Assembly (NCBI GenBank): GCA_025964055.1
Contig: JAOPZP010000495.1
Coordinates: forward strand, 1-35,327
Direction of reading: 5' to 3'
Length of the DNA: 35,327 nt
Origin: Conexibacter sp.
GTDB lineage: Bacteria; Actinomycetota; Thermoleophilia; Solirubrobacterales; Solirubrobacteraceae
Positions 2,649-28,585 of this stretch are shown here, piece after piece. Positions within the stretch are counted from its first letter, which is position 1, and each line of letters opens with the position of its first letter. The position numbers were made by a program, and so were the translations under genes. The notes below the pieces were generated by a model, which did no database searches, was not told the DNA's origin, and saw only the letters and a list, made by a program, of their open reading frames with translations.

Positions 2649-2675
2649 AACGCTCCTAGGCGGGCAGGGCTTCCG
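2649..2675 (-). promoter_or_regulatory. Putative ECF-type promoter CGGAAG-N17-CGTT (one mismatch)
   Basis: Minus strand: CGGAAG 2675-2670, CGTT 2652-2649, 11 nt before ATG 2637. Confidence 0.6.
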
Positions 2676-3453
2676 TCGGGCCGTGGCCCTCGGCGTCGTG
2701 CTCGGCCTGGCTCTCCAGGACCCATCCGTCGCGGATGCGGGCGAGGAAGATCAGGCTCGCGCAGGCCGCGCCGAACGTCACGAAGAAGGCCACGATCGCC
2801 ACCTGCCAGCGCACGCCGCGGTTGATGACCGTGCCCCGCGCGCGGCCCAGCTGGACCAGGCGGACCTGGTCCTGGGCGGGGATCCGGCCGGTGGCGGCGA
2901 GCTGCGCGAGGTGCCGGCGCAGCTCGTCCACCGCGGCGTTGGCGAGGTCCGCGGCGCTGCGCGCGTCCGGCGCCTGGGCGTAGACGTCGAGGATCGGCAC
3001 CGTCGGGTTGGCCTGCAGGCTCAGCCGGTACTGGTTGGTGGACTTGAAGATGTCGCTGGTGTGCTTGTCGCGGCCGGCCTCGGCCGGGGCGCGCGGCTGG
3101 GCCGGCGTCAGCGGCGCGTCGATCTGCAGCAGCTGGAGCGGCACGCCGCTGCGGGCGGCGATCGACTGCAGGACCGGCGTGCTCGCCATGACGTTGCCGA
3201 GCAGGACCGTGCGGTTGGTCAGGCCCTCGAGGCTGTAGGTGTCCTGGCGCAGGTCGAGGATCGACGAGGTCGGCGTGTCGACCACCACGTGCGTCGCCGC
3301 GGTCGCCATCTCGAGCGAGCGCGGCGTCAGCTTCAGCGGGACGACGCTGATCTTCTCGACGCTCCAGGTGGCGACGAGGAGCGCGACGACGAAGGCCCCG
3401 ACCACGCCACCGCGGAGGTGCCAGAGCTTGCGCAGGCGAAGGCCGAGTCCCAT
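2656..3453 (-). CDS. Wzz/CapA-like membrane protein (paralog 2)
   Basis: Two terminal TM segments; VVVDTPTSS and VPILDVYAQAPDARSAADLANAA; ATG 3453 chosen because it lies 10 nt after the promoter CGTT. Confidence 0.65.
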   Translation of the reverse strand: MGLGLRLRKLWHLRGGVVGAFVVALLVATWSVEKISVVPLKLTPRSLEMATAATHVVVDTPTSSILDLRQDTYSLEGLTNRTVLLGNVMASTPVLQSIAARSGVPLQLLQIDAPLTPAQPRAPAEAGRDKHTSDIFKSTNQYRLSLQANPTVPILDVYAQAPDARSAADLANAAVDELRRHLAQLAATGRIPAQDQVRLVQLGRARGTVINRGVRWQVAIVAFFVTFGAACASLIFLARIRDGWVLESQAEHDAEGHGPTEALPA

Positions 3454-3463
3454 GTGCCAGACC

Positions 3464-3490
3464 AACGGCGGCGCGGCCCGGCTACTTGCG
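3464..3490 (-). promoter_or_regulatory. Putative ECF-type promoter CGCAAG-N17-CGTT
   Basis: Exact match: CGCAAG 3490-3485, CGTT 3467-3464, 10 nt to ATG 3453. Confidence 0.75.
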
Positions 3491-3500
3491 CGGCGGCCTC

Positions 3501-3527
3501 CGCAAGATCGCGCCGGGGACCTGCGTT
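3501..3527 (+). promoter_or_regulatory. Putative ECF-type promoter CGCAAG-N17-CGTT
   Basis: Exact match: CGCAAG 3501-3506, CGTT 3524-3527, upstream of the 3602-8667 operon. Confidence 0.75.
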
Positions 3528-3560
3528 GATCAGAGACGGATTCACCACGAGGGAGCCTCC

Positions 3561-3605
3561 ATGATCCACCAGCACGCAGCCATGAACGACGAGGACCGAC
3601 GGTGA
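3561..3605 (+). CDS. Candidate 14-aa leader peptide MIHQHAAMNDEDRR
   Basis: GAGGGAG at 3549-3555, ATG 3561; its TGA (3603-3605) overlaps the GTG start (3602-3604) of the next gene. Confidence 0.35.
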   Translation: MIHQHAAMNDEDRR

Positions 3606-4600
3606 GCGCCTACGGCAAGGTGCTCGTCACCGGCGGTGGCGGCGCCATCGGCTCCAACATCACCGACGAGCTCGTGCTCGCGGGCGCCGAGGAGATCGTC
3701 GTCCTCGACAACTTCGTGCGCGGGCGCCGCGAGAGCCTCGACTGGGCGCGGGCCAACGGCAACGTCACGCTCGTCGAGGGCGACATCCGCGACAACGCGC
3801 TCGTCCGCCGGCTGATGGACGGCGTCGACGTCGTCTTCCACCAGGCCGCCATCCGCATCACCCAGTGCGCCGAGGAGCCGCGACTCGCGCTCGAGGTCCT
3901 CGTCGACGGCACCTACAACGTCGTCGAGGCCGCCGCCGAGGCGGGCGTCCGCAAGCTCGTCGCCGCCTCGTCGGCCTCCGCCTACGGGCTGGCCGAGACG
4001 TTCCCCACGCGCGAGGATCACCACCCCTACGCCAACGACACCCTGTACGGCGCCTCCAAGGTCTTCCTCGAGGGCCTGCTGCGCAGCATGCACGCGATGA
4101 AGGGCCTCGACTACGTGGCGCTGCGCTACTTCAACGTCTACGGCCCGCGGATGGACGTCCACGGCCTGTACACCGAGGTGCTCGTGCGCTGGATGGAGCG
4201 CATCACGGCCGGCGAGCCGCCGCTGATCCTCGGCGACGGGTCCCAGACGATGGACTTCGTCTACATCGGCGACGTCGCCCGCTCCAACCTCCTGGCCGCC
4301 GAGGCCGACGTGACCGACAAGGTCTACAACGTCGCCAGCGGGACGGAGACCAGCCTGCTGGAGCTCGCCGAGATGCTCGCGCAGGTCATGGGCTCCGAGG
4401 CCGACGTCGAGCACGGACCCGAGCGCTCGGTCAACAAGGTCTCCCGCCGCCTGGCCGACACGACGCTGGCGCGCGACGAGATCGGCTTCGAGGCCACGGT
4501 CGGGCTCGAAGAGGGGCTCACGCGCCTGGTGGAGTGGTGGCGCGGCGAGCGCGAGGGCGCGCCGACCATGCCGATCGGCTCGCTGGCGAGGAGCGCCTGA
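3602..4600 (+). CDS. NAD-dependent nucleotide-sugar epimerase/dehydratase (extended SDR)
   Basis: TGGGGAIG, ASSASAYG, YGASK, LRYFNVYGPR. Confidence 0.93.
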   Translation: MSAYGKVLVTGGGGAIGSNITDELVLAGAEEIVVLDNFVRGRRESLDWARANGNVTLVEGDIRDNALVRRLMDGVDVVFHQAAIRITQCAEEPRLALEVLVDGTYNVVEAAAEAGVRKLVAASSASAYGLAETFPTREDHHPYANDTLYGASKVFLEGLLRSMHAMKGLDYVALRYFNVYGPRMDVHGLYTEVLVRWMERITAGEPPLILGDGSQTMDFVYIGDVARSNLLAAEADVTDKVYNVASGTETSLLELAEMLAQVMGSEADVEHGPERSVNKVSRRLADTTLARDEIGFEATVGLEEGLTRLVEWWRGEREGAPTMPIGSLARSA

Positions 4601-5736: not shown

Positions 5737-6395
5737 AGCCGCTCCTGCTCGTCGGCGCCGGGGGCTTCGCCCGCGAGACCCTCGAGCTGGTGCGGGCGGT
5801 CAACGCCGTCGCCCCGACCTGGCGGGTCGTCGGGCTCCTGGACGACGACCCGCGCCTGGTCGGCGCCGAGGTGCACGGCGTCCCGGTGCTCGGCCCGTCC
5901 GGCGCGGTGCACGACCATCCCGAGGCGCTGGTCGTCGCGACGGTGGCGTCGCCCGATGCGCCGGCGCGCCGGCTGGAGGTCGTGGCGCGGCTCGGCCTGC
6001 CCGCGGAGCGCTACGCGACCCTGGTGCACCCGACGGCCGTCGTGCCGGCGTCGGCGACGCTGGGCCCCGGCACGGTGCTGCACGCGACGGTCGTCCTCAC
6101 CGCCGACGTGCGGCTCGGCGCTCACGTCGCGGTGATGCCCGCGGTGGTCCTGACCCACGACGACGACCTCGGCGACGGCGTCACGGTCGGCGCGGGCGTG
6201 CGGCTGGCCGGAGACGTGCACGTCGAGCGCGCGGCCTACCTCGGCTCCGGCGCGCTCGTCCGCGAGCACCTGCGCATCGGCGCGGGCGCGGTCGTGGGCA
6301 TGGGCGCGGTCGTCACGCGGTCGGTGCCGCCCGGCGAGGTCTGGGCCGGCGTCCCGGCCCGCTCGCTGGCGGACGTGGTCGCGGCCCGGCCGTGA
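5733..6395 (+). CDS. NeuD/PglD/VioB-family sugar acetyltransferase (left-handed beta helix)
   Basis: GTG start at a GTGA overlap; LVGAGGFARE, LVHPTAVV, hexapeptide repeats, C-terminal WAGVPAR. Confidence 0.9.
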   Translation: MKPLLLVGAGGFARETLELVRAVNAVAPTWRVVGLLDDDPRLVGAEVHGVPVLGPSGAVHDHPEALVVATVASPDAPARRLEVVARLGLPAERYATLVHPTAVVPASATLGPGTVLHATVVLTADVRLGAHVAVMPAVVLTHDDDLGDGVTVGAGVRLAGDVHVERAAYLGSGALVREHLRIGAGAVVGMGAVVTRSVPPGEVWAGVPARSLADVVAARP

Positions 6396-8667: not shown

Positions 8668-8694
8668 CGGACGCACGGGCCGCTCCCGCGCGTT
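8668..8694 (+). promoter_or_regulatory. Degenerate ECF-type promoter CGGACG-N17-CGTT
   Basis: 4/6 match in the -35, exact CGTT 8691-8694, 10 nt to ATG 8705; no SD seen. Confidence 0.5.
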
Positions 8695-8704
8695 GCTGGG
8701 GCAT

Positions 8705-9703: not shown

Positions 9704-9815
9704 CCGTCGCCGGCGGCCCCGAACGCGGTCCCTTTTCCAACCTCCCCGATGGTCGAGTCTTCGGCAGCAGCCGTTGCCCTGGGCCCTCCTCCTCCGATAT
9801 GAGCCAGGCAACGTC

Positions 9816-12800
9816 ATGACCCTCACCACGCCCTTCTTGCTCCCGCGCGGTCTCGCGCGGCGGCTCGCCCTTCTCGCCTTTCTGGTTGCCGCACCCCTGC
9901 TCGCGGGCGCGACGCATCCGGCCGTCTCGCTGGCCGACGCGTGCACGGCGCCGGTGGTCAGCCCGGTGGCGTGCGAGAACACCAAGCTGGGTGCAGACCC
10001 CCAGACCTGGGCGGTCGACGGCGCCGGCGACCCGAGCATCCAGGGCTTCGCGACGCAGCAGAGCGTCAACGTCGGCACGACGGTCAACTTCAAGATCAAG
10101 TCCACCACGTCGGCCTTCCACATCGACATCCTGCGCCTCGGCTACTACCAGGGCAACGGCGCGCGGCTGATGCAGGGCGGCATCACGCCGTCGGGCACCG
10201 CGGTGCAGGGGGCGTGCAAGAGCGACGCGACCACGGGCCTGATCGACTGCGGCAACTGGGCCGTCTCGGCCTCCTGGCCGGTGCCGAGCACCGCCGTCTC
10301 CGGCGTGTACGTCGCGCACCTGGTCCGCAACGACGGCACCGGCGACAGCCAGATCATCTTCGTGGTCCGCAACGACGCGAGCCACTCCGCCATGGTCCTC
10401 CAGACGTCCGACGCGACGTGGCAGGCCTACAACACGTACGGCGGCAACAACCTGTACGACTGCGCCAGCGTCTGCCCGCCCGGCAACCCGAGGGCCTACA
10501 AGGCGGCCTTCGCGGTGTCCTACAACCGGCCGCTGGGCCAGCCCTACGACGGCGTCTCCTCGCTCTTCCAGGGCGCCGAGTACTCGATGATCCGCTGGGT
10601 CGAGGCCAACGGCTACGACGTCAGCTACCTCAGCGAGGTCGACGTCCACCGCCGCGGCTCGCTCCTGCTCAACCACAAGACCTTCATCTCCAGCGGGCAC
10701 GACGAGTACTGGTCGGCCACGCAGCGGTCAAGCGTCGAGGCGGCGCGCGCGGCCGGCGTCAACCTCGCGTTCTTCAGCGGCAACGAGGTGTTCTGGAAGA
10801 CCCGCTGGGCGTCGAGCATCGACGGCAGCAACACCCAGGACCGCACGCTGATCAGCTACAAGGACACGCACTTCGACGCGCCGACCGACCCGGTCGAGTG
10901 GACCGGCACGTGGCGTGACGACCGCTTCGCCTCGGCGACGGACGCGGCCAAGCCGGAGAACGCGCTGACCGGGCAGTCGTTCGTCATCAACGCGGGCACC
11001 ACGAGCCTGACCGTTCCCGCCCAGTACGGCGCGATGCGACTCTGGAAGAACACGGCCGCCGCGACCCTGACGGCCGGCCAGACGCTCACGCTGTCGCCCG
11101 CGACGCTCGGCTACGAGTGGGACGTCGACGCCGACAACGGCTTCCGCCCCGCCGGCCTCATCAAGCTGTCGGCCACGACCGCGACCGGCCTGGACGCGTT
11201 CGTCGACTACGGCACGACCGTGGTCCCCAACAGCACCGCGACCCACAACCTCGTGATGTACCGGGCGCCGAGCGGCGCGCGCGTCTTCGGCGCCGGCACC
11301 GTCCAGTGGGCGTTCGGGCTCGACAGCCCCAACCCGGGCGGCGGCACGGCCAACCTGACCATGCAGCAGGCGACGGTCAACCTCCTCGCCGACATGGGCG
11401 CCCAGCCGGTGACCCGGCAGGCCGGCCTCGTCGCGGCCACGGCCTCGACCGACACGACCGGACCCACGGTCACGGTCGGCACCACGCCGGCGACGGTCGC
11501 CGACGGCTCCAAGCTCACGATCACCGGCACCGCGAGCGACCTCGGCGGCGGGGTGGTCGGCGGCGTCGAGCTGTCCACCGACAACGGCGCGACGTGGCAC
11601 CCGGCGACCGGGACCGCGAGCTGGAGCTACTCCTGGGTCGCGCACGGCGCGCCCACGGCGAAGATCCTGGCGCGCGCCACCGACGACAGCGGCAACATCG
11701 GCGCGGCCAGCGCAGCGCGCTCCATCGGCGTGAGCTGCACCTGCTCGCTGTTCGGCACGAACGTCACGCCTGCGGCCGCCGGCGTCGACGGCGGTGACAC
11801 GACCGCCATCGAGGTCGGGATGAAGTTCACCTCCGACCAGTACGGCACGATCAAGGGCCTGCGGTTCTACAAGGCCGCCACGAACACCGGCACGCACACC
11901 GGCAGCCTCTGGACCGCAGGCGGTCAGCGCCTCGCGCAGGCGACGTTCACCGGCGAGACCGGCTCGGGCTGGCAGACGGTGACCTTCGCCAACCCGGTGC
12001 TGGTCACGCCCGGCACGACCTACGTCGCGTCCTACTACGCGCCCGCCGGCCACTACTCCGCGACGGCCGACTACTTCTACCGGACGCCCGCGCCCGGCCC
12101 CAACGGCGGCGCGATCGCCGACAGCCCGCCGATCCACGCGCTGCGGAGCTTCGGCGCGACCACGAACGGCGTCTACGCCTACGGCAGCTCGAGCAGCTTC
12201 CCGACGCAGTCCTACGGCGCCGCGAACTACTGGGTCGACGTGCTGTTCGACCCGACGCCCGCGCCCGGGGCGGTCTCGGGGGTCACCGCCGCGTCCGGTG
12301 GCAAGACCTCGGCCAACATCGCGTGGACGGCTCCCACCACGGGTGGCGCCCCGACGTCCTACGTCGTCACGCCCTACGTCGGCACGACCGCCGCGCCGCC
12401 GATCACGGTCACCGGCTCGCCGCTGGGCGCCAACGCCACCGTGACGGGCCTGACCAACGGCACGACCTACACGTTCACGGTGAAGGCCGTCAACCCGGCC
12501 GGCTCCAGCGCTGAGTCGGCGCAGTCGGTCGCCGTCACGCCGCTGACCGCGGTGGCCCCCGGGCCGCCGGCGTCGGCCACCGCCGAGCCCGCGTCCGAGC
12601 AGGCGCGGGTCAGCTGGACCGCGCCGGGCACCGACGGCGACAGCGCGATCACCGGCTACGTGGTGACGCCCTACACGGGCACGACCGCCGGGACGCCGGT
12701 GACCGTCGCGGCCGCCACGCGGACCGTCACGATCACGGGTCTCGCCGACGGCGCGAGCACGACGTTCAGGGTGGCCGCGGTCAACGCCGTCGGCACCGGG

Positions 12801-15401: not shown

Positions 15402-15453
15402 TGAACTGACGAAGGGCTGAAAAGACGGGGCCTCTGGACCCGTTGTGTGTTAC

Positions 15454-17346: not shown

Positions 17347-18359
17347 CCGCGGCTCGGCGGCGCACGGCCTTCGTCGCCCTCCTGGCGCTCTGCGTGGTGG
17401 GCGCCGGCGTCGCGGTCCTCGCCGGCCTGGGGTCAGGCGGCGCCGCGAAGGGCGGTTCGACCGGCGCGCTCGCAGACGCGCAGCAGACCCGGCGCCCCGT
17501 GGTCCTGTACCGCACCGGCGACCGGTCGCAGGGCCCGGGCGGGCAGCTCGCGCTCGCATCGCTCGCCCAGCCGGGCACGCCGGCCACCGCGCTGCACCTG
17601 AGCTGCGGCCGCGTGTCCTACGCTCCCGGCGCCGGCCTCTGCCTCACGCAGGCCAAGGGCTTCGCGGCCGGGTACGAGGCCGACGTCTTCGGCGCGGACC
17701 TGAAGGTGCGCCACCGGCTCGCCGTCGAGGGCGTCCCGAGCCGTGCGCGGGTGTCGCCCGACGGGCGGTACGGCGCGGTGACGCTCTTCGTGACCGGCCA
17801 CTCCTACGCCGCGGCCGGGCAGTTCTCCACCGACACGACGCTGATCGACATGCGGTCCGGCCGTGAGGCCGCGCAGCTCGAGCGGTTCGCGGTCACCAAG
17901 GGCGATCGGCAGCTCACCGCGCTCGACATGAACTTCTGGGGCGTGACCTTCGCCCGCGACAGCGACCGCTTCTACGCCACCCTCGCCACGGGCGGCAAGA
18001 CGTACCTGGTGGAGGGATCGGTGCGCGGCCGGACGGCGCGCGTGCTGCACGAGAACGTCGAGTGCCCGTCGCTGTCGCCCGACGGCACGCGCATCGCCTA
18101 CAAGAAGCGGACCGGTCCGGCGTCGCGGCCCTGGCACCTGACCGTGCTCGATCTCGCGACGATGCACGAGACCCCGCTGGCGGAGACGCGCTCGATCGAC
18201 GACCAGGTCGAGTGGCTCGACGACCGGCGCGTCCTCTATGGCGTCGGCGGCGACGTCGACGTCGCTGCGGCCGATGGGACGGGCCGGCCCGCGCGGTTCT
18301 TCACCGGCGGCGGCTCCCCGACGGTCCTGAGCTGGGCAGCGCGCACGCCCGCAAGCTGA
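17343..18359 (+). CDS. Membrane-anchored TolB-like (PD40) beta-propeller protein
   Basis: N-terminal TM segment; SRARVSPDGRY and ECPSLSPDGTRIAY repeats; ATGA overlap with the MFS gene. Confidence 0.75.
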   Translation: MTAARRRTAFVALLALCVVGAGVAVLAGLGSGGAAKGGSTGALADAQQTRRPVVLYRTGDRSQGPGGQLALASLAQPGTPATALHLSCGRVSYAPGAGLCLTQAKGFAAGYEADVFGADLKVRHRLAVEGVPSRARVSPDGRYGAVTLFVTGHSYAAAGQFSTDTTLIDMRSGREAAQLERFAVTKGDRQLTALDMNFWGVTFARDSDRFYATLATGGKTYLVEGSVRGRTARVLHENVECPSLSPDGTRIAYKKRTGPASRPWHLTVLDLATMHETPLAETRSIDDQVEWLDDRRVLYGVGGDVDVAAADGTGRPARFFTGGGSPTVLSWAARTPAS

Positions 18360-18376
18360 CGGCAATCCGGAGCGTT
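18350..18376 (+). promoter_or_regulatory. Putative ECF-type promoter CGCAAG-N17-CGTT
   Basis: Exact match: CGCAAG 18350-18355, CGTT 18373-18376, 10 nt to ATG 18387. Confidence 0.75.
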
Positions 18377-19566: not shown

Positions 19567-21228
19567 TCAGCGGATCCCGACGTCCTGGCCGTCGGAGGCG
19601 CGGCCGTGGCCCGGCGAGCCGGCGGTCAGCCGGAACCCGGTCGCCACCGTGGGATGGGCGCCGCCGACGTACGCCGGCGTGCCGGTGAAGTCGCCGCTGG
19701 CCACGCCCTGGCGGACCATGTTGTGGTTGCGCGTCGCGACCGTCGAGCCGTTCTCGAGGGTCACGCCCGAGGTGATGTTGTCGATCACGGTCGTGCCGCT
19801 GCCCGCCGGGTCGGCCGACTTGCGGTTGATGTCGATGAAGCCGCAGGGCACGTTGCCCGCGTAGCAGCCGGTCGGCCGGTACACCACCGTGTTGTGACGG
19901 ACGGTCGAGCCGTTGTCGGAGTACAGCTCGATGCCCGCCGTGCGCGCGATGTCGACCACGTTGTCCTCGATGGTCGCGTGGTCGATGCCGTCGTAGGCGA
20001 CGATGCCCGACGCCGTGTCGTGGACGTAGTTGCCGCGGACCAGGACACCCGTCGCGCCGATGAGCTGCATGGCGTCGCTGTGGGCCGGGTCGCTGGGACC
20101 CGTCTCCTTGATGTTGCTGAACTCGTTGTTGATGATGTTCATCCCGACGCCCGTCTGGATGCCGTCGGAGTTGCCGCCGCTGAGCACCGAGTTCATCACC
20201 GTCACGCCCGAGGCGGTGGGGGAGTCGTAGTTGCCGTGGATCCGGGCCGGGTCGCACGACGCGCAGGTCATGATGTTGTTGTGCGTGTTGTGGTCCAGCA
20301 GCACGTTGGCGTTCGCGAGGCGGTCGAACATCAGGCTGCCGGTGAACGTCGAGTTGCGGATGGTGATGTTGTTGGTCGCGCCGGTCAGGGTCGCGCCCGT
20401 GATCGTCAGGCCGTCGAGGATGATGTTCGACGCAGCCCCGAAGTCCACCGCCATGCTGACCGCCGCGCCGGGCTGCGGGATGACGAAGACCGGTCCGGGC
20501 TTCGCTGCGCCCGTGAACGTCCCGTAGCCGCCGGCGGCCAGGCAGACCGTCTGGCCGCTGGTCGCCGCGGCGAACTGCGCGCCGAACGTGGCGGTCGTCG
20601 CCGTGCGGTTGCACGTGGCCGGCGTGGCCGGTGGGGTCGGGATGGGGGTGGGCGTCGGGCCCGTCGTGCCGATCCCGGTGCCGCCCGGCGTTCCGGGCGC
20701 GGCTCCGGCGGGGGCGCCGGGTGCGGGCACGCCGGCCGTGGCGGTCGAGCTGGCCCCCGGCGCCGCCGCGCCCGGCTGGGCGCCCTTGGCGGCGGCCGGC
20801 ACGCTGCTCTTCTTGCGCGGATCGCTGCCGGCCTTGACCTCGGCCCCGTCGCTGAAGCCGTCGCCGTCGGTGTCCTTCTTGCGCGGGTTCGTGTGGTACT
20901 TGCGGACTTCGGCGCCGTCGGTCAAGCCGTCGACGTCGGTGTCCTTGCGCCGCGGACCGGTGTGGTAGCGCAGGACCTCCTGGCCGTCGGTGAGGCCGTC
21001 GCGGTCGGTGTCCTTGCGGCGCGGGTTGGTGTGCAGCCGGTACTCGCGGAGGTTGCTGAGGCGATCGTGGTCGGTGTCGGCCTTGACCGAGCCCACCGCG
21101 AGGCCGTAGTGATGGGCCCAGCCCTTGGGGAGCAGGCTCTGATGGCGGTGGCTGGTCGCCGCGATCGCCGCGGGGACGGCGATGGCGAGGAGGCAGAAGG
21201 CCACCGTCATGCTTCTGAGCTTGGACAT
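19567..21228 (-). CDS. Secreted protein: bacterial TSP3-like Ca-binding repeats + Pro/Ala/Thr linker + right-handed parallel beta-helix domain
   Basis: Signal peptide; DTDxDGLxD repeats; NITIRNS, HSDAMQL, GIELYSDNGS beta-helix stacks; GAAAGGGA SD. Confidence 0.82.
   Translation of the reverse strand: MSKLRSMTVAFCLLAIAVPAAIAATSHRHQSLLPKGWAHHYGLAVGSVKADTDHDRLSNLREYRLHTNPRRKDTDRDGLTDGQEVLRYHTGPRRKDTDVDGLTDGAEVRKYHTNPRKKDTDGDGFSDGAEVKAGSDPRKKSSVPAAAKGAQPGAAAPGASSTATAGVPAPGAPAGAAPGTPGGTGIGTTGPTPTPIPTPPATPATCNRTATTATFGAQFAAATSGQTVCLAAGGYGTFTGAAKPGPVFVIPQPGAAVSMAVDFGAASNIILDGLTITGATLTGATNNITIRNSTFTGSLMFDRLANANVLLDHNTHNNIMTCASCDPARIHGNYDSPTASGVTVMNSVLSGGNSDGIQTGVGMNIINNEFSNIKETGPSDPAHSDAMQLIGATGVLVRGNYVHDTASGIVAYDGIDHATIEDNVVDIARTAGIELYSDNGSTVRHNTVVYRPTGCYAGNVPCGFIDINRKSADPAGSGTTVIDNITSGVTLENGSTVATRNHNMVRQGVASGDFTGTPAYVGGAHPTVATGFRLTAGSPGHGRASDGQDVGIR
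20803..21078 (-). repeat. TSP3-like DTDxDGLTDGxEVxxYHTNPRxK repeats (about 69 bp unit)
   Basis: Four DTD units visible in the translation. Confidence 0.85.
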
Positions 21229-21430: not shown

Positions 21431-23374
21431 TCAGCGGCGGCCGACGTCCGCGCCGTCGGTCGCGGCGCCGTTGCCGGGCGAGCTGGAGGCGAGCGTGAAG
21501 CCCGAGTACGCGCCAGGCGCCGATCCGCCGGAGTAGACCGGGGTCCCGATCGTGTTGGCCGATCCCGCCGCGGTGCGCAGCATGTTGTGCGTGTTCTGGG
21601 CTGCCGTCGACCCGTCGCTGATCGAGACGTCGGTCGCGATGTTGTCGCTCACGACCGTGCCCGTGCCCGCCGGATCGGCGCTCTTGCGGTCCAGGATGAT
21701 GTACCCGCAGGCGGCGTACGCGCAGCCCGTGTTGTAGACGAGCGTGTTGTGGCGGACGATCGAGCCGTTGTCGGAGTAGAGCTCGATGCCCCACCGGCCG
21801 TTGATCAGGTCGATGACGTTGTCCTGGATCGTGGCGTGTGAGAGGCCGTCGTAGGCGACGATGCCGTCAGCGGTGTTGTGGATGTAGTTGCCCTGGACGA
21901 GGGAGTACGGCGCGTCGATGAGCTGGATGGCGTCGGTGTGCGCCTGATCGTTCGGGCCGTTCTCCTTGATGTTGCGGAACTCGTTGTTGATGATGTTAAG
22001 GCCCGTCCCCGCCTGGATGCCGTCGGCGTTGCCGTCGGCGAACAGCGAGTTCGACACGGTCACGCCGGAGGGCGTGTTCGAGCCGTAGGGCAGGTGGATC
22101 ATCGCGGGGTCGCAGCTGGCGCACGTCTGGACGCCGATGTGCGTGTTGTGGTCCAGCAGGATGTTGGCGTTGGCGACGCCGTCGATCACCAGGTGGCTGC
22201 TGAACGCCGAGTTGCGGATGGTGATGTTCTTGGCGCCGGCGTTGATGGACCCGCCGGGGGTCGAGATGCCGTCGATCGTGAAGCCGGAGTCACCGGTGGT
22301 GAAGTCCAGGCCCATGGTCACCGCGGCGCTGGCGGCCGGCCGCAGGGTGATGGCCTTGTTGGTGCCCGTCCAGGTGCCGTAGTTGCCGGCGGCGAGGCAG
22401 AGCACCTGGCCCGCCGTCGCGGCGCTGACCTGTGCCGAGAACGTCGAGGTGGTGGCGTTGCGATCGCAGGTCGTCGGCGTCGGCGTCGGCGTGGGCGTGG
22501 GATCCGGCGTGGGCGTCGGGTCCGGAGTGGGCGTCGGGGTGGGATCCGGCGTGGGCGTCGGCGTCGGGTCAGGGGTCGGGCTGGGCGCAGCCGTCACGGT
22601 CAGCGTCTTGTTCGCGGTGGCCGCGCGGCCGAGCGCGTCGGTGACGGTCAGGCGCACGTACTTGGACCCGGCGCCCTGGAAGGTGAAGGTGGGGGTCGTG
22701 CCCGAGCCCAGCGGCCAGGCGCCGGTGCCGTCGGAGCCGACGTCCGTCCAGTTGTAGGTGCACGGCGTCACCACGCAGGTGGATCCGCGGCCGTCGAACT
22801 TGACCTGCTGCCCGGTCTGCGGGGCAGACGGCGTCGCCGTGAAGGCGGCCGTCGGTGCAGCCGGCGTCGGGACCGGCGTGGGCGTGGGCGTCGGCGCGGG
22901 CGTCGGGTCCGGCGTCGGCGTCGGGGCCGGCGTCGGCGTCGGGTCCGGCGTCAGGATCGGCGGGACCACCACGGGCGGCACGGGGATGGGGGCCGGAGTC
23001 GGCTTCTTCGGCACGCTGCTGCGCTTCAGGGGATTGCTGCCGGCCGTCACCTCGACGCCGTCGGAGTAGGTGTCGCCGTCGGTGTCCTTCTTGCGCGGAT
23101 TGGTGTGGTAGCGCTGGACTTCCTGACCATCGGTGAGGCCGTCCCTGTCGGTGTCGATCGCCGAGGGGTTGAGCTTCAGCTGGAACTCGATCCGGTTGGC
23201 GAGCCCGTCACGGTCGGCATCGCTGCCGGCCGATGAGGCGCCGGCGGCGATGTGGTAGCGCGCCTGCCACGCGTCGTTCAAGCCGTCGTGGTTGGCGTCG
23301 GCGGCGGCGGCGGTGGCAATTGGCCCCACGCACGCGGCGAGGGCGAGGACCGGCAACATCAAGAACTTCGACAT
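21431..23374 (-). CDS. Secreted protein: TSP3-like repeats + PT linker + PKD domain + PT linker + parallel beta-helix (paralog of 19567..21228)
   Basis: AGGAG SD, MSKFLMLPVLALAA signal; PKD-like PTAAFTATP...VKFDG...YNW...VRLTVTD; HTDAIQL, GIELYSDNGS. Confidence 0.82.
   Translation of the reverse strand: MSKFLMLPVLALAACVGPIATAAAADANHDGLNDAWQARYHIAAGASSAGSDADRDGLANRIEFQLKLNPSAIDTDRDGLTDGQEVQRYHTNPRKKDTDGDTYSDGVEVTAGSNPLKRSSVPKKPTPAPIPVPPVVVPPILTPDPTPTPAPTPTPDPTPAPTPTPTPVPTPAAPTAAFTATPSAPQTGQQVKFDGRGSTCVVTPCTYNWTDVGSDGTGAWPLGSGTTPTFTFQGAGSKYVRLTVTDALGRAATANKTLTVTAAPSPTPDPTPTPTPDPTPTPTPDPTPTPDPTPTPTPTPTTCDRNATTSTFSAQVSAATAGQVLCLAAGNYGTWTGTNKAITLRPAASAAVTMGLDFTTGDSGFTIDGISTPGGSINAGAKNITIRNSAFSSHLVIDGVANANILLDHNTHIGVQTCASCDPAMIHLPYGSNTPSGVTVSNSLFADGNADGIQAGTGLNIINNEFRNIKENGPNDQAHTDAIQLIDAPYSLVQGNYIHNTADGIVAYDGLSHATIQDNVIDLINGRWGIELYSDNGSIVRHNTLVYNTGCAYAACGYIILDRKSADPAGTGTVVSDNIATDVSISDGSTAAQNTHNMLRTAAGSANTIGTPVYSGGSAPGAYSGFTLASSSPGNGAATDGADVGRR
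22470..22953 (-). repeat. Two Pro-Thr/Asp low-complexity linkers (about 22470-22585 and 22861-22953) flanking the PKD domain
   Basis: Tandem GGCGTC/GGCGTG hexamers encoding (PT)n and TPDP. Confidence 0.85.
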
Positions 23375-23832: not shown

Positions 23833-23860
23833 TCCGCGCACGCCCTCCAGGCGTGGCGGA
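23833..23860 (-). terminator. Imperfect hairpin after the ACP gene
   Basis: TCCGCGCACGCC-CTCCA-GGCGTGGCGGA: 11-bp stem with one bulge, just past the stop at 23867. Confidence 0.4.
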
Positions 23861-23866
23861 GGGGGC

Positions 23867-24130
23867 TCAGGTCAGCTTGCGGTCGACCAGCTCGCTGAGG
23901 CTGGCCAGCGTCTCGAACGCCTCGGCGGTGACGTCGTCGCCGTCGAAGACGATGCCGAACCGCGCCTCGAGCGCGACGACGAGCTCCGCCACGGCCAGCG
24001 AGTCCAGCTCCGGGAGCGCGCCGAGCAGCGGCGTGGACGCGTCGATCGTGCCGGCGCGGTCCTCGAGGCCGAGGGTCTCGACGATCACGGCCTTGACGCT
24101 CTCGATGCTCGTCGTGGTGTTGGGGTCCAT
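23867..24130 (-). CDS. Acyl carrier protein
   Basis: 87 aa, acidic; LLGALPELDSLAV phosphopantetheine-serine motif; AGGAG SD 5 nt before the ATG. Confidence 0.9.
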   Translation of the reverse strand: MDPNTTTSIESVKAVIVETLGLEDRAGTIDASTPLLGALPELDSLAVAELVVALEARFGIVFDGDDVTAEAFETLASLSELVDRKLT

Positions 24131-24174
24131 CGGTGCTCCTGTCGCGGAAGGGCGGTCGTGCTCGTCGGACATCT

Positions 24175-25395
24175 TCACACGAGCACTTCGGCGGCGGCCG
24201 GGTGGCCGAGGAAGGCCGCCGGGCTGGCGGTCAGCCCGTAGGCGCCCGCCTGGAACATGACCACCAGGTCGCCGACGTCGGCGGGCGGCAGCTCCACGTT
24301 GTCGGCGAGCAGGTCCAGCGGCGTGCAGAGGCAGCCGACGACCGTCACGGCCTCGGTCTCGGTCGCGTCCCCGCGCCCGCCGATCGCCACGGGGTAGTTG
24401 CGCCGGATGACCTGGCCGAAGTTGCCCGAGGCGGCGAGCTGGTGATGGAGTCCGCCGTCCACGACGAGGAACGTCTTGCCCCGGGACTCCTTGCGGTCGA
24501 CGACGCGCGTCACGTAGACGCCGCACTCGCCGACGACGTAGCGGCCCAGCTCGACCACGACGCGCGCGTCGGGCAGGTTGGGGGTCACGACGTCGGCCAG
24601 GAGCCCGGCCAGGTTCTCGCCGATCGCGCCGAGGTCCAGCGGCTGGTCCTGGGGGAAGTAGGGGATCCCGAAGCCGCCGCCGACGTTCAGGTACCGGATC
24701 GGCTCGGCCGCATGCTCGGCCAGCGCGACCGCGAGGTCGACGGTCTTGCGCTGCGCCTCGCACAGGATCTCGGCGTTGAGGTTCTGGGAGCCGGCGAAGA
24801 TGTGGAAGCCCAGGAGCTCGAGGTCGGTGGCGGCGATCTGCGCCAGCAGCGCCGGCACCTGCTCGGCGTCGACGCCGAACTGCTGGGGGCCGCCCGACAT
24901 CCGCATGCCCGAGCCCTTCACCTGGAAGTCGGGGTTGACGCGCACCGCGACGCGCGGCCGGATGCCGAGCCGCTCGCCCGTCTCGGCGATGCGCCGCGCC
25001 TCGGTCGCCGACTCCATCTCGATCGTCACGCCGGCCGCGACGGCCTGGCTGAGCTCCTGCGGCGTCTTGCCCGGGCCGGCGAAGCTGATCCGGTCCGCCG
25101 GCGTGGGCGTGTCGAGCGCGACCTGCATCTCGCCCGCCGAGGCGACGTCCAGCGAGTCCACCAGGCCGCTGAGGTGCTGGACGACCGCCGGCATCGGGTT
25201 GGCCTTCACGGCGTAGCTCAGGTCGATGCCCGCCGGCAGCGTCGCACGCAGCAGCGCGATGCGCTCGTTCAGCAGCGCGCGGTCGTAGGCGAAGAACGGG
25301 GTGGTGCCGACGCGAGCGGCGAGGCGCTCGAGCGGCACGCCGCCGACGTGGTCGCAATGGCGCAGCGCGGTGGCGGTGGCGATGGTGTCGGTCAT
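24175..25395 (-). CDS. Fold-type III PLP-dependent decarboxylase (BtrK-like; 'exosortase A system-associated' TIGR03099-like)
   Basis: SYAVKANP (PLP lysine), FHIFAGSQNL, NVGGGFGIPYF, ELGRY, GCLCTPLD, GAYG. Confidence 0.9.
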   Translation of the reverse strand: MTDTIATATALRHCDHVGGVPLERLAARVGTTPFFAYDRALLNERIALLRATLPAGIDLSYAVKANPMPAVVQHLSGLVDSLDVASAGEMQVALDTPTPADRISFAGPGKTPQELSQAVAAGVTIEMESATEARRIAETGERLGIRPRVAVRVNPDFQVKGSGMRMSGGPQQFGVDAEQVPALLAQIAATDLELLGFHIFAGSQNLNAEILCEAQRKTVDLAVALAEHAAEPIRYLNVGGGFGIPYFPQDQPLDLGAIGENLAGLLADVVTPNLPDARVVVELGRYVVGECGVYVTRVVDRKESRGKTFLVVDGGLHHQLAASGNFGQVIRRNYPVAIGGRGDATETEAVTVVGCLCTPLDLLADNVELPPADVGDLVVMFQAGAYGLTASPAAFLGHPAAAEVLV

Positions 25396-26945
25396 GAGGA
25401 CGCGAGCTCCTGGCGCAGCAGGTTGCGGTCGAACTTGTCGTTGGGCGAGCGGGGAAGCTCGGCCCGCACGGAGACGTGCTTGGGCAGCATGTAGAGCGGC
25501 AGCTGCTTGCGCAGCTCCGCCAGCAGGACGCCGGGGTCGAGCTCGGCGCCGTTGGCCGGGCTGACGGCCAGGACGATGCGCTGGCCGAGGCGGTCGTCGT
25601 CGATGCCGAGGGCGACCGCGTCGCGGACCAGGCCCGTGCCGTAGACGACCTCCTCGATCTCGGTCGGGCTCACGCGGTAGCCGGACGTCTTGATCATCTC
25701 GTCCTTGCGGCTGACGAAGTAGAGGAACCCCTCCGCGTCGCGGGTCACGGCGTCGCCGGAGAAGACCGCCAGCTCGGTGGTCATGAGGCCCGGGTCGCGG
25801 CCGGGGGCCGGCTTGAAGCGCTCGGCGGTGCGCGCGGCGTCGTTCCAGTAGCCCAGCGCCACGAGCGCGCCGCGATGCACGAGCTCGCCCTCCTCGCCGT
25901 CGTCGCAGAGCGTGCCGTCCTCGCGGACGACGAGGATCTCGGCGTTCGGGATCGCCTTGCCGATCGAGTCCGGGCGGCGATCCACCTCGTCGGGGTCGAG
26001 GTAGGTCGAGCGGAACGCCTCCGTGAGGCCGTACATGAGGTACGGCTTGGCCGCCGGGAAGATCGCCCGGAGCCGGTCCAGCGTGGCCCGTGGCATGCGC
26101 CCACCGGTGTTGGCGAAGTAGCGCAGGCTCTCCGACGCCTCCGCCGGCCACTCCTGCTCGGCCAGCTGGATCCACAGCGGTGGCACGCACGTCAGCCCCG
26201 TGACGCGATGGCGGGCGCACAGGGCGACGACGTCGCGCGCGAGCAGGTAGTCCACGAGCACGACGTGCGCGCCGACGGTGAACGCGGTGGTGAGCTGGCT
26301 GAAGCCGGCGTCGAAGCTCAGCGGCAGCGCGGCCAGGATGACGTCGTCGGCGTCGTTGTGGAGGTACTCGCTGACGCTCGCGCCGCCGACCAGCAGGTTG
26401 CGGTGCGAGAGGACGACGCCCTTGGGCTTGCCCGTGCTGCCCGACGTGTACAGGATCGCCGCGAGGTCGACGTCGACGCGCGGGCCGGACGGCAGCGGGG
26501 TGTCCGGAGCCAGGACGTCCTCCCAGGACCGGGCGCCGCCGGCGGGCTCCGTGCCGAGGACGACGAGGTGCTCCAGCGCCGGGCACTGTCCGAGCTCGTC
26601 GCGCAGGAGCGCGAGGCGCTCGGCGGTCGTGACCAGGACGCGGACGTCGCAGTCGGCCAGGATGTAGGCGACCTGCTTGGCCCGGAGCTGCGGGTTGACG
26701 GGCACGAACACGCCACCCGCGGCGGAGGTGCCGAAGATCGAGACCACGGTCTCGACACGCTTGTCGAGGTAGACGCCGACGCGCTCGCCCCGCTGGAGGC
26801 CCAGCGCGGCGAGCCCGGCACCGAACGCCGCGACGTCGTGCCAGAGCTCGGCGTAGCCGACCGTGCGGTCCTTGACCGTCAGCGCGGGGGCGTCCGGCGT
26901 CCGGGCGGCCGCGTCGGCGATCAGGTGGTGCAGGTGGGTGTGCAT
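25392..26945 (-). CDS. AMP-forming acyl/aminoacyl ligase ('exosortase A system-associated' TIGR03098-like)
   Basis: YTSGSTGKPKG, LPLSFDAG, YGLTEAFRSTY, KTSGYRVSPTEIEE, PRSPNDK; GGAGGA SD. Confidence 0.9.
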   Translation of the reverse strand: MHTHLHHLIADAAARTPDAPALTVKDRTVGYAELWHDVAAFGAGLAALGLQRGERVGVYLDKRVETVVSIFGTSAAGGVFVPVNPQLRAKQVAYILADCDVRVLVTTAERLALLRDELGQCPALEHLVVLGTEPAGGARSWEDVLAPDTPLPSGPRVDVDLAAILYTSGSTGKPKGVVLSHRNLLVGGASVSEYLHNDADDVILAALPLSFDAGFSQLTTAFTVGAHVVLVDYLLARDVVALCARHRVTGLTCVPPLWIQLAEQEWPAEASESLRYFANTGGRMPRATLDRLRAIFPAAKPYLMYGLTEAFRSTYLDPDEVDRRPDSIGKAIPNAEILVVREDGTLCDDGEEGELVHRGALVALGYWNDAARTAERFKPAPGRDPGLMTTELAVFSGDAVTRDAEGFLYFVSRKDEMIKTSGYRVSPTEIEEVVYGTGLVRDAVALGIDDDRLGQRIVLAVSPANGAELDPGVLLAELRKQLPLYMLPKHVSVRAELPRSPNDKFDRNLLRQELASS

Positions 26946-26973
26946 GCTGGGCTGGTCCTCCGGGCCGTCCGCG

Positions 26974-27831
26974 TCACCAGGGGACGCACACGAGCTCGCT
27001 GTAGAAGTAGTCGATCTGGGCGGCGTCGAGGTTCGCGCTGCGAAACATCTTGCGCCGCGTCGCCTTCACGTCGAGGGCCAGGCGGGGGCGACGTCCGACG
27101 ATGCGGTCCTCGGCGAGCATCGCCGGCATGCCGTGGCGCAGCAGCAGATGGCGCGCGAAGGGGCGCCGGCAGCGGGCGAACAGCTCACGGTCGCTGACGT
27201 GCAGCACCGAGGCGAACAGCGGCAGCCCCCGGCGCCGGTCCTTGCGGAACACGACGTAGCACCACCGGTCGCCGCGCCGCAGGACGACGTGACGGGCCGC
27301 GGCGGCGGTGGCGTGGTCGCGATACAGCTGGAGCTGGTCGCCGGTCAGGACCTGCTCGATCCCGGCCCGGTCGGCGATGACCTCGGTCCGGCCCGGCAGC
27401 GACGGCCACGGCAGGTTGGGGACGAGCGCGGCCGCGGTGTCCAGGAAGCGGAAGCTCAACTTGGTGTTGATGTCCACGACGCTGCCGCTGGGCGAGAGGT
27501 CGGTGAACGTGTAGCCGTCCTGGGCCAGCAGCGCCTTGAGCAGGCGCAGGCCGTGGAAGCGGTAGGCGGGGAGGACGCACCACGCGCCGAGGTTGCAGAA
27601 GCGCTCGCGCCGGCCGTCGATGGTGCGCTCGGAGTAGAAGGCGAGATGGGCGCCCACGATCGTCCCGTCGTCGAGCAGCATGAAGCCGCCGTTCGGGCGC
27701 TCGGCCGTCCACGGGACGTCCAGCGCGCCGGCCCACACGTCCGGGCCGACCCGCTCGTTGAGGTGCTCGTGGAGGAAGGCGCCGACCCGGGGGCCGTCGT
27801 CCGGCGCGATGGGGTGCAGCGTCAGCGCCAC
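26974..27831 (-). CDS. Putative GNAT-fold acyltransferase
   Basis: GTG start overlapping the deacetylase stop; FCNLGAWCVLPAYRFHGLRLL resembles GNAT motif A. Confidence 0.6.
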   Translation of the reverse strand: MALTLHPIAPDDGPRVGAFLHEHLNERVGPDVWAGALDVPWTAERPNGGFMLLDDGTIVGAHLAFYSERTIDGRRERFCNLGAWCVLPAYRFHGLRLLKALLAQDGYTFTDLSPSGSVVDINTKLSFRFLDTAAALVPNLPWPSLPGRTEVIADRAGIEQVLTGDQLQLYRDHATAAAARHVVLRRGDRWCYVVFRKDRRRGLPLFASVLHVSDRELFARCRRPFARHLLLRHGMPAMLAEDRIVGRRPRLALDVKATRRKMFRSANLDAAQIDYFYSELVCVPW

Positions 27832-28490
27832 CGCTTCACCGCCAGCTTGGCGTGGCGCTGCAGCCGCGCGACCGGCTGCGCCTCCGACGCGGTGGCCGTC
27901 GTGAGCACCGCGTCGGCACGATCGGCCGAGTGGATCGAGGTGCGTGCCTGCAGCCACGCGTCCGGGTGGGCGGTGCCGCCGTCGCTGGTGTATACGCGGT
28001 CATAGCCGCCGCGGCGCAGCGCTCGCAGGACGCGGCGATCGTAGGCGCCGAACGGGCACGATGCTTCGGTGACCGGGCGGTCGAGGACGCCCTCGAGCTG
28101 CGCCTTGGCCTCGACGAGCTCTTCGTGCAGGCCCTCGTCGGGGAGATGGCGCCAGGGGACGTGGCGCATGCCGTGGCAGCCGATGGCCATGCCGGCGTCG
28201 GCCAGGGCCCGGACGTCGCCGGCGCTCAGGAACCCCGGCCGGCCGAGCCGCTCGGCGACGACGAAGAAGGTGCCGCGCAGCTTGCGCCGCTCCAGCTCCG
28301 GCAGGGCGTGCCGGACGTCGGACGCGTTGCCGTCGTCGAACGTCAGGCGGACGTCGGCGCGGCCCGACACGTGGTCGAGCACGGCTCCGAACAGCTGCCG
28401 ATCGATCCAGACGTCGCCTTCTCCGTCGTCCAGCGGCCGGTCGATGTCGCCGATCCCGTGGAAGGTCAACGTGATGAATCGCGGATCCAT
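27822..28490 (-). CDS. Polysaccharide deacetylase (CE4/NodB domain), no signal peptide
   Basis: LTFDDG, GCHGMRH, CPFG; ATG 28490 lies 10 nt after the promoter CGTT. Confidence 0.88.
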   Translation of the reverse strand: MDPRFITLTFHGIGDIDRPLDDGEGDVWIDRQLFGAVLDHVSGRADVRLTFDDGNASDVRHALPELERRKLRGTFFVVAERLGRPGFLSAGDVRALADAGMAIGCHGMRHVPWRHLPDEGLHEELVEAKAQLEGVLDRPVTEASCPFGAYDRRVLRALRRGGYDRVYTSDGGTAHPDAWLQARTSIHSADRADAVLTTATASEAQPVARLQRHAKLAVKRWR

Positions 28491-28500
28491 GCGTTCCATC

Positions 28501-28527
28501 AACGGCCACGCGCGGCAAGCACTTGCG
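28501..28527 (-). promoter_or_regulatory. Putative ECF-type promoter CGCAAG-N17-CGTT
   Basis: Exact match: CGCAAG 28527-28522, CGTT 28504-28501, 10 nt to ATG 28490. Confidence 0.75.
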
Positions 28528-28558
28528 CGGGCCGGGCGCCGATCGGGGGCCGGCGGTC

Positions 28559-28585
28559 CGCAAGAAGCCCTACGGGCCCGGCGTT
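28559..28585 (+). promoter_or_regulatory. Putative ECF-type promoter CGCAAG-N17-CGTT
   Basis: Exact match: CGCAAG 28559-28564, CGTT 28582-28585, upstream of ATG 28639. Confidence 0.75.

What the first reader, a model, noticed from the sequence alone, without database searches (positions are those of the whole stretch)
2649..28585. Locus-wide promoter CGCAAG-N17-CGTT: a likely leaderless ECF regulon read directly from the DNA
Seen: five exact copies, each correctly oriented in front of a transcription unit: 3490-3464(-), 3501-3527(+), 18350-18376(+), 28527-28501(-), 28559-28585(+). Degenerate copies are CGGAAG (2675-2649,-), CGGACG (8668-8694,+) and weakly TGAAAA (15418-15444,+). In four cases CGTT is exactly 10 nt from an ATG with no SD (3453, 8705, 18387, 28490), and 11 and 9 nt in two others. 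A rough estimate at an assumed 73% GC gives well under one chance copy per window. Known: ECF promoters are bipartite, typically AAC-type -35 and CGT-type -10. Inference: the sigma at 31783..32442 is the dedicated activator of this glycan system and reads an unusual AAG -35. The motif ties the Wzz-like genes, sugar operon, GT2s and ACP module into one system.
Basis: partly seen in the sequence, partly recalled or inferred. Interest (0 to 1): 0.82.

Follow-up and report, generated by a model that had tools for sequence, protein, structure and literature searches.

The report
Dedicated promoter of a polysaccharide island
One short two-part DNA signal sits in front of eight sugar-polymer gene units in this soil bacterium and recurs at matching gene clusters of related species; it is likely the promoter read by a distinct family of sigma factors encoded in the same cluster, which would let one protein switch on the whole polysaccharide programme.

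Summary
In detail: five exact copies (shuffles 0.02), three degenerate ones, all distances as stated. A matrix built without the window scores all eight sites as the only intergenic hits of 12 bits or more. Held-out sigma loci carry 51 sites in 12 stretches, control stretches from genomes without the sigma 3 in 40. The sigma (31783-32442) belongs to a well-supported clade apart from BldN, found in 83 of 301 genomes of the order. It has His where most ECFs have Arg171; published mutagenesis shows His permits -31G while Arg and Lys exclude it, which explains AAG. Corrections: the sigma is not clearly autoregulated and has no adjacent anti-sigma; a second clade member and more sites lie on other contigs; only about 40% of sites in relatives have leaderless geometry; AAG -35 boxes are already predicted for other ECF groups. 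No transcript data. Verdict: a real, apparently undescribed ECF regulon for a polysaccharide island; a new variant of a known kind.

The parts
2649..2675 (-). Promoter site CGGAAG-N17-CGTT(GAT), 11 nt before ATG 2637; heads GT2 (1627-2637), Wzz-like gene (794-1603), methyltransferase (15-797)
   Evidence: 15.2 bits; 4 of 9 GT2 orthologs have a site; Pfam
3464..3490 (-). Exact site, 10 nt before ATG 3453 of a Wzz-like gene (2656-3453); back-to-back with the next site
   Evidence: 17.3 bits; 5 of 8 orthologs have a site
3501..3527 (+). Exact site, leadered; heads epimerase (3602-4600), DegT aminotransferase, hexapeptide acetyltransferase and two GT4 genes (to 8667)
   Evidence: 17.6 bits; 6 of 6 epimerase orthologs have a site, 0 of 6 for the internal DegT gene
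8668..8694 (+). Degenerate site CGGACG-N17-CGTT(GCT), 10 nt before ATG 8705 (nucleotidyltransferase-like); probably reads on into the DUF4082/FN3 gene 9816-15401
   Evidence: 12.6 bits; 1 of 4 close orthologs at 12 bits or more; more distant homologs have sites 9 nt before ATG; read-through is inferred
15418..15444 (+). Degenerate site TGAAAA-N17-CGTT(GTG), 9 nt before ATG 15454; heads DUF3558-like gene, MFS transporter (16075-17346), PD40 protein (17343-18359)
   Evidence: 13.9 bits; lacks the third-position T; 4 of 4 MFS orthologs have a site within 200 nt; Pfam
18350..18376 (+). Exact site, 10 nt before ATG 18387 (in-frame GTG at 7 nt); GT2 gene to 19556
   Evidence: 16.4 bits; 3 of 4 orthologs have a site
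28501..28527 (-). Exact site, 10 nt before ATG 28490; heads deacetylase, GNAT-like gene, acyl-CoA ligase (TIGR03098), PLP decarboxylase (TIGR03099), ACP (23867-24130)
   Evidence: 15.6 bits; 4 of 5 deacetylase orthologs have a site, 0 of 4 and 0 of 5 for ligase and decarboxylase
28559..28585 (+). Exact site, 53 nt before ATG 28639 of a Wzz-like gene (28639-29481); back-to-back with the previous site
   Evidence: 16.9 bits; 5 of 5 orthologs have a site; Wzz is a lead only (PF02706 on 40% of a 0.97 Atlas cluster; no Pfam hit)
31783..32442 (-). ECF sigma factor, 219 aa; Lys88, Asp117, His190, Gly191 at the positions of RpoE Lys56, Asn84, Arg171, Ser172; first gene of a unit with DegT (30656-31783) and Gfo/Idh/MocA oxidoreductase (29598-30650); no anti-sigma beside it
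   Evidence: Pfam Sigma70_r2 and r4_2; TIGR02937 over cut-off, TIGR02952 98.9 bits against 206.45; alignments; tree; neighbours
32630..32656 (-). Weak -10-only match upstream of the sigma gene; not counted as a site
   Evidence: 8.7 bits; 0 of 33 orthologs have a 12-bit site within 200 nt, 6 of 52 within 560 nt

Best explanation
The motif is likely the -35/-10 promoter (consensus YGSAAG-N17-CGTTNNT) read by RNA polymerase carrying a Solirubrobacterales-specific ECF sigma, encoded at 31783-32442, which would switch on all eight transcription units of this polysaccharide island together. Shown: the sites, their fixed 17-nt spacing, orientation, position before first genes of units, conservation in orthologous loci, and co-occurrence with the sigma clade. 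Inferred: CGTT is -13 to -10 and the extra T is -7, which places +1 about 9 nt after CGTT, so six window genes would have 0-2 nt leaders; Asp117 and Lys88 read C-13, G-12, T-11; His190 replaces the usual Arg/Lys and admits G at -31; Gly191 leaves -34 unspecified (C or G seen). The sigma is likely controlled at its own transcription by another input (response-regulator genes flank it in several relatives) rather than by an anti-sigma and positive autoregulation. The product is likely a Wzx/Wzy-type extracellular polysaccharide with amino-sugars and an acyl modification.
For: De novo, without the window, the top dyad in 727 upstream regions of 36 sigma loci is GAAG-N17-CGTT (25 regions, 1.86 expected), with CAAG-N17-CGTT at 18 against 1.33; exact pattern 27 at spacer 17 against 0-7 at spacers 12-22. 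A matrix from those loci scores the eight window sites 12.6-17.6 bits; they are the only intergenic hits of 12 bits or more, beside 2 coding hits. Held-out sigma loci: 51 sites in 12 stretches (11 with a site), 1-3 at other spacers; control stretches around PF02397 genes in 24 genomes without the clade: 3 sites in 40. Whole genomes, pattern YGSAAG-N17-CGTT-N8..11-ATG: mean 1.78 in 82 sigma-positive against 0.38 in 218 others; two or more in 43 of 82 against 11 of 218. Unscored T three bases after CGTT: 53 of 74 held-out intergenic hits, 6 of 22 control hits, 7 of 8 window sites. In-frame ATG/GTG 8-11 nt after CGTT: 33 of 78 and 24 of 62 sites, other 4-nt windows 1-13. Sites are conserved before first genes and absent before internal genes. 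The Wzz-like gene occurs in 29 other genomes, 28 of them sigma-positive; in the exception, G107, its 40-kb locus has 0 sites and no clade sigma among 71 candidates. Residues: Asp 54 of 54, Lys/Arg 54 of 54, His 51 of 54 aligned rows. PMC7776599 dataset S3: His at 171 gives -31 G 0.50, C 0.40; Arg and Lys give G 0.007; Tyr 0.86 and Asn 0.69 G; Asp at 84 gives CG 0.62. G098 (Tyr variant) keeps AAG sites.
Against: No transcript, start-site or binding data. G000 has a second clade member (C234, 47-48% identity, His at the same position) with a 13.6-bit site upstream, so which copy reads the window sites is open. G176 has a perfect back-to-back pair, 8 and 11 nt before ATGs, but no clade sigma among 44 candidates scored (93% complete). 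9 of 36 training loci and 1 of 12 held-out stretches have no 12-bit site, and 19 of 82 sigma-positive genomes have no match to the strict pattern. The control is imperfect: only 3 of 40 stretches held three or more window-like glycan genes, while held-out stretches were picked for lying between sigma and Wzz-like genes. Sigma-negative status rests on 10 candidates scored per genome, fully checked for five. Genomes are kin and some loci near-copies, so counts overstate independence. His is only a G/C residue in the mutagenesis, measured in another sigma, and I could not see whether that mutant counted as active; other G000 ECFs also lack Arg/Lys at this position. Co-inheritance of sigma, island and motif is correlation.
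Confidence: 0.8

Rival explanations
1. The promoters are real, but in this genome they are read mainly by the paralogous clade member on contig C234, or by both copies in a cascade or redundantly; the window sigma is only one input.
For: C234 paralog has the same Lys, Asp and His residues and falls in the same clade; it has a 13.6-bit site about 108 nt upstream, whereas the window sigma has only an 8.7-bit match.
Against: In 7 of 9 held-out genomes only one clade member was found, next to the island, and six of the seven have 3-9 sites; the window copy is the island-linked type, followed by DegT as in several relatives. A site before the paralog fits equally with it being a target.
Confidence: 0.12
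2. The promoters are read by some other ECF sigma common in the order, and the clade sigma merely travels with the island.
For: G176 carries a perfect divergent pair without the clade; 69 of 218 clade-negative genomes have at least one strict match; other G000 ECFs have non-Arg/Lys residues at the -31 position; AAG boxes are predicted for ECF218 subgroups in Actinobacteria.
Against: 3 sites in 40 control stretches against 51 in 12; the Wzz-like locus of clade-negative G107 has none; the strict-pattern rate in negatives (0.38) is close to what the reversed-pattern control columns show by eye; the clade's conserved residues predict this motif.
Confidence: 0.06
3. The motif is an operator of a transcription factor, or a chance or repeat-derived pattern, not a promoter.
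For: The exact pattern is common genome-wide.
Against: Non-palindromic, strand-specific, single spacer length, fixed offset to start codons, T at the -7 position and ECF-like boxes; spacers differ in every copy.
Confidence: 0.02

Closest known systems
Streptomyces sigma-BldN (ECF121), motif CGTAAC-N16-CGTTGA (PMC2375139, passages)
   Same: Same -10 core CGTT and a CG-N-AA-type -35; best PDB match (6dxo_A, E 2.8e-15; its helix equals that of over-cut-off TIGR02952 members); not autoregulated and drives surface-structure genes (PMC7826278 supplement); short N-terminal extension here too.
   Different: AAG instead of AAC, spacer 17 instead of 16; His instead of Lys at the -31 residue; TIGR02952 score 98.9 against 206.45; separate clade in the tree; no RsbN-like anti-sigma at +1; glycan island instead of the hem gene context.
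ECF218 subgroups s41/s28/s33 (predicted TGCAAG -35, CGACA -10); also ECF253 (TTTGAAGGG / CGTCTAA) and ECF289 (CCCAAGGA / CGTCTxA) (PMC7826278 supplement, passages)
   Same: AAG-type -35 boxes; ECF218 is actinobacterial and its TGCAAG is one of the variants seen here.
   Different: -10 is CGTTNNT here; those motifs were predicted upstream of the sigma genes themselves, and ECF218 has a one-helix anti-sigma at +1, which is absent here. No group models were available to test membership by sequence.
S. coelicolor SCO3450 island regulon (bioRxiv 10.1101/247056, passages)
   Same: An ECF sigma inside a patchily distributed island with a common promoter before many of its units.
   Different: AACGG / CG motif, flanking anti-sigma genes, sigma inside its own regulon, small-molecule enzymes rather than a polysaccharide pathway.
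AlgU/AlgT control of alginate genes in Pseudomonas (recalled; not read here beyond search listings)
   Same: An ECF sigma driving exopolysaccharide synthesis.
   Different: AlgU is a global, anti-sigma-controlled, autoregulated stress sigma with an Arg171-type AAC box, not an island-encoded local activator.

Membership tests
ECF (group 4) sigma factor | [quoted passage not shown] | tested here: met
   Pfam PF04542 and PF08281 over cut-off, 219 aa; TIGR02937 101.4 against 42.9
ECF-type promoter | Two boxes at a fixed 16-18 nt spacing, CGT-type -10 | tested here: met
   Spacer 17 only
ECF-type promoter | Transcription starts just downstream and depends on the sigma | not testable with these tools
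   Geometry fits; needs start-site mapping and genetics
BldN family / ECF121 | TIGR02952 score over cut-off | tested here: not met
   98.9 bits against 206.45
BldN family / ECF121 | Groups with BldN in a tree | tested here: not met
   Quick IQ-TREE tree of 90 rows: clade 100% SH-aLRT on a 0.9 stem, outside the 35-row group holding BldN and BldN-like rows; deep order unresolved
BldN family / ECF121 | Membrane anti-sigma at +1 and hem-gene context | tested here: not met
   +1 gene is DegT here and in many relatives, varied in others; definition
BldN family / ECF121 | Processed N-terminal extension | tested here: inconclusive
   About 35 residues precede the sigma-2 match; processing not testable
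ECF218 | One-helix anti-sigma at +1 | tested here: not met
ECF218 | Match to the ECF-group sequence models | not testable with these tools
   ECF Hub models are not among the libraries offered
Leaderless mRNA | Start codon at or within a few nt of +1 | tested here: inconclusive
   6 of 8 window sites have an in-frame start 9-11 nt after CGTT; +1 itself is inferred
Wzz / polysaccharide co-polymerase | Match to PF02706 | tested here: inconclusive
   No Pfam or NCBIfam hit; Atlas neighbour cluster at 0.97 with PF02706 on 40% of members
Exosortase-A-associated ligase/decarboxylase module | TIGR03098 and TIGR03099 over cut-off | tested here: met
   766.6 against 592.35 and 585.2 against 478.45

The most novel reading that the evidence does not exclude
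This is an unclassified ECF group, confined to Solirubrobacterales, that has neither anti-sigma nor autoregulation and acts as master switch of an extracellular-matrix state: the island sigma turns on the Wzx/Wzy polysaccharide, a second clade sigma heading another polysaccharide operon (C234), response regulators, and in many relatives an adjacent ribbon-helix-helix gene as feedback; a single Arg/Lys-to-His change insulates it from the AAC-reading ECFs of the same cell.
Probability: 0.35. Interest if true: 0.72.

Novelty: new variant of a known kind. Interest (0 to 1): 0.57.

Why it matters
It gives a testable regulator, promoter and regulon for a widespread soil order: the clade was found in 83 of 301 genomes, with 6,957 related proteins at E of 1e-30 or better among 7,999 scored. 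The order's taxid is not in the list of clades queried by the global ECF regulon survey, and since these sigmas are mostly not autoregulated, surveys that look upstream of sigma genes would miss the motif. It is a natural case matching the experimental recognition code (His at Arg171 admits -31G), so it may serve as an orthogonal switch beside AAC-reading ECFs. A close relative is named by its source as Solirubrobacter pauli (P0114, 82%), so the tests can be run in a culturable organism. The principle itself, an ECF sigma driving a neighbouring gene cluster, is known.

Tried and rejected
Exact-pattern counts across 301 genomes: uninformative, background everywhere. Autoregulation of the sigma: rejected as a rule (6 of 52 and 0 of 33). 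Filing as BldN/ECF121: rejected. Regulation at a distance in G251 (11 sites at C1:4.215-4.255 Mb, sigma on C3): not claimed, because both lie at contig ends and may be adjacent. Joining the window to C185, C221, C71 or C234 by shared 30-base ends: none. Covariation of the -31 residue with the -35 box inside the clade: too few variants (Tyr, Asn, Gln once each); Tyr and Gln genomes still show AAG. G258 (divergent helix): no sites near its sigma or its distant Wzz-like locus, and half of that locus had no called genes. A regulator site upstream of the sigma genes: some enriched words (CACTAGGG in 11 of 52) but no palindrome that stood out, not followed. Small convergent protein of relatives: no Pfam or NCBIfam hit, not found in G000 by tblastn (68% complete); no complex prediction sent because no binding is claimed. 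The first query was not an open frame and is uninformative. The careful tree did not finish; the quick tree is used. Earlier scan findings: nothing in three look-ups. Literature searches that found no description of this clade or motif: (listings) and passages of 10.1101/2023.10.31.564804 and PMC4255298. The PMC7826278 supplement is cut when stored, and datasets S1-S2 of PMC7776599 are too large to read; a classification of this clade could be there.
Full report
Observation. The five exact copies of CGCAAG-N17-CGTT lie at the stated places; shuffles give 0.02. The three degenerate copies and the distances to ATG (10, 10, 10, 10, 11, 9 nt) are right; two exact copies are leadered by 74 and 53 nt. 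The window is all of contig C232 of a 3.5-Mb, 68% complete assembly whose closest sigma relatives are Solirubrobacterales. The exact pattern alone is weak evidence: 5 more copies lie elsewhere in the genome, other spacers give 0-14, and 292 of 301 genomes of the order contain it.

Anatomy. A codon-model gene caller written here finds 29 genes. Pfam and NCBIfam name GT2 and GT4 glycosyltransferases, epimerases, two DegT aminotransferases, RmlC and RmlD, a deacetylase, an ACP, and a ligase and decarboxylase over the cut-offs of TIGR03098 and TIGR03099. Three related genes without family hit are Wzz-like only as a lead. The eight sites stand before the first gene of eight units, including two back-to-back pairs (3464-3527, 28501-28585). 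The sigma operon, rmlC and the two TSP3/beta-helix genes have none; the unit starting at 35313 is cut by the contig end, and 2 of 2 orthologs of its first gene have a site.

Independent recovery of the motif. The sigma clade was found in 83 of 301 genomes of the order. I took about 40 kb around 30 of these sigma genes (29 of the 82 other genomes, chosen for long contigs and spread) plus six loci. In these 36 loci the exact pattern occurs 27 times at spacer 17 and 0-7 times at other spacers (17 of 36 loci). An unseeded count of all 4-mer pairs in 727 upstream regions ranks GAAG-N17-CGTT first (25 against 1.86 expected) and most top pairs are views of the same motif. A matrix refined from them was then used on 13 columns only.

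Held-out and control tests. Twelve new stretches from nine sigma-positive genomes give 51 sites, 1-3 at each other spacer; forty stretches around sugar-transferase genes of 24 genomes without the clade give 3. The control is imperfect, since only 3 of the 40 were rich in window-like glycan genes, and the held-out stretches were chosen for glycan content. The unselected whole-genome test points the same way: mean 1.78 strict matches in 82 positive genomes, 0.38 in 218 others. A T three bases after CGTT, not scored, is present in 53 of 74 held-out intergenic hits but 6 of 22 control hits and 7 of 8 window sites. Sites are kept before orthologs of first genes (6 of 6, 5 of 5, 4 of 5, 5 of 8, 3 of 4, 4 of 9, 1 of 4) and missing before internal genes (0 of 6, 0 of 5, 0 of 4, 0 of 14). 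The Wzz-like gene is in 29 other genomes, 28 with the sigma; the one without, G107, has no site in 40 kb. Against: G176 has a perfect divergent pair before non-glycan, apparently frameshifted genes and no clade sigma; 19 of 82 positive genomes lack the strict pattern; kin are not independent.

Why this sigma. Alignment to solved ECFs puts Lys88, Asp117, His190 and Gly191 at the positions that PMC7776599 names Lys56, Asn84, Arg171 and Ser172 (text parts 2-3 of the preprint; that chain 6in7_B is the RpoE ortholog AlgU is recalled, its G-T-V-R-S-R-I-F matches the residues the paper names). The paper links a basic residue at 56 to T-11 and Asp at 84 to C-13 G-12 (0.62 in dataset S3). At 171, Arg and Lys give -31G only 0.007, His gives G 0.50 and C 0.40, Tyr 0.86, Asn 0.69, Gln 0.27. 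The clade has His in 51 of 54 aligned rows and Tyr, Asn, Gln in the other three, while 29 of 30 BldN and BldN-like rows have Lys or Arg. Gly at 172 shows no preference in the dataset, and the -34 column is uninformative here. So the sequence of the protein predicts CGT at -10 and tolerance of G at -31. This is transfer from other sigmas, not a test of this one.

Leaderless geometry. With CGTT at -13 to -10, +1 falls 9 nt after it. In-frame ATG/GTG occur 8-11 nt after CGTT at 6 of 8 window sites, 33 of 78 training and 24 of 62 held-out sites; other 4-nt windows hold 1-13, the next one (12-15 nt) being the fullest. Many targets are thus likely leaderless or have 1-2 nt leaders, but most sites in relatives are leadered.

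Limits of 'dedicated' and 'locus-wide'. A second clade member lies on C234 with a 13.6-bit site upstream. Further intergenic sites lie on C185 (four, before a flippase-like gene, a response-regulator-like gene, a glycosyltransferase pair and a long Wzz-like fusion), C221, C71, C297, C452 and C241 (names from reading the proteins, not from a family scan). Homologs of the C185 genes occur in sigma loci of relatives and not in control stretches, so C185 is likely part of the same island. Outside these the rest of G000 has 7.8 intergenic 12-bit hits per Mb against 123 in the training loci, so the regulon is local and small.

How the sigma is controlled. No anti-sigma-like gene follows it; +1 is DegT in many loci, and response-regulator and PAS genes are frequent neighbours. 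Only 6 of 52 sigma genes have a 12-bit site within 560 nt, though in five loci the sigma follows a target gene in the same direction and may be read through. Control by transcription from a two-component system is an inference.

Comparison. The nearest characterised sigma is BldN, motif CGTAAC-N16-CGTTGA, also not autoregulated. Membership fails on score, tree and context. In a sample of 301 genomes across the phylum only one other genome of the order and two weak 36-40% matches, which group with BldN-like rows, pass 1e-28. AAG-type -35 boxes are predicted for ECF218 subgroups, ECF253 and ECF289, so the box is unusual, not unique. An island-encoded ECF with its own regulon is known from S. coelicolor. 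My searches found no account of this clade or motif; the ECF classification supplement, cut when stored, does not mention Conexibacter, Solirubrobacter or Patulibacter, and the order is not in the clade list of the regulon survey.

Verdict. The feature is real and is best read as the promoter of an apparently undescribed ECF clade that switches on a polysaccharide island in Solirubrobacterales (0.8). Which of the two copies in this genome does the work, and where transcription starts, remain to be measured. New variant of a known kind; interest 0.57.

Noticed in passing
window 3561-3605 (+): A 14-codon ORF with a Shine-Dalgarno-like AGGGAG lies in the leader of the 3501 promoter; its stop overlaps the GTG of the epimerase, as if coupling translation.
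   Followed up: no
G000 C234:3-6965 (-), L174: Second sigma of the clade heads a unit with a 1070-aa protein, a small protein, a glycosyltransferase with a GGVSSW word and a membrane protein; this recalls Pel-type operons (from memory, not tested) and has the motif upstream.
   Followed up: partly
L026-L049, e.g. L049:1003-1407 (+), L027:2100-2483 (-): A small protein convergent with the sigma in many relatives (tblastn hits in 19 of loci L021-L050 within the 80 rows printed), ribbon-helix-helix-like by Atlas features, often preceded by the motif with CGAT or CGTT; a candidate feedback regulator, not found in G000.
   Followed up: partly
G176 C1:184994-185071 (L211/L212): Perfect back-to-back motif pair before apparently frameshifted non-glycan genes in a genome where the clade sigma was not found.
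   Followed up: partly
G000 C71:874-2869: A second epimerase-rmlD start similar to the right end of the window, with a 14.6-bit site; its other two genes match the upstream neighbours of the sigma in L003 at 86%. Paralog or strain mixture.
   Followed up: partly
window 19567-21228 and 21431-23374 (-): Two related secreted proteins with TSP3 calcium-binding repeats and a right-handed beta-helix, possibly polysaccharide lyase-like; no motif upstream. The sub-cut-off Binary_toxB matches cover only the calcium repeats.
   Followed up: no
window 32700-32760: Inverted repeat GGGTGAG-AGAC-CTCACCC in the sigma/rmlC intergenic region, seen; possible regulator site.
   Followed up: no
window 23867-28490 (-): The ligase/decarboxylase/ACP module is annotated as exosortase-A-associated, a context known from Gram-negative EPS loci (recalled); here it is in an actinobacterium.
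   Followed up: no
L167:11481-13097 (G086): A different ECF sigma converges with a gene preceded by CGTAAG-N17-CGTT (15.2 bits) and has a 10.9-bit match itself.
   Followed up: no
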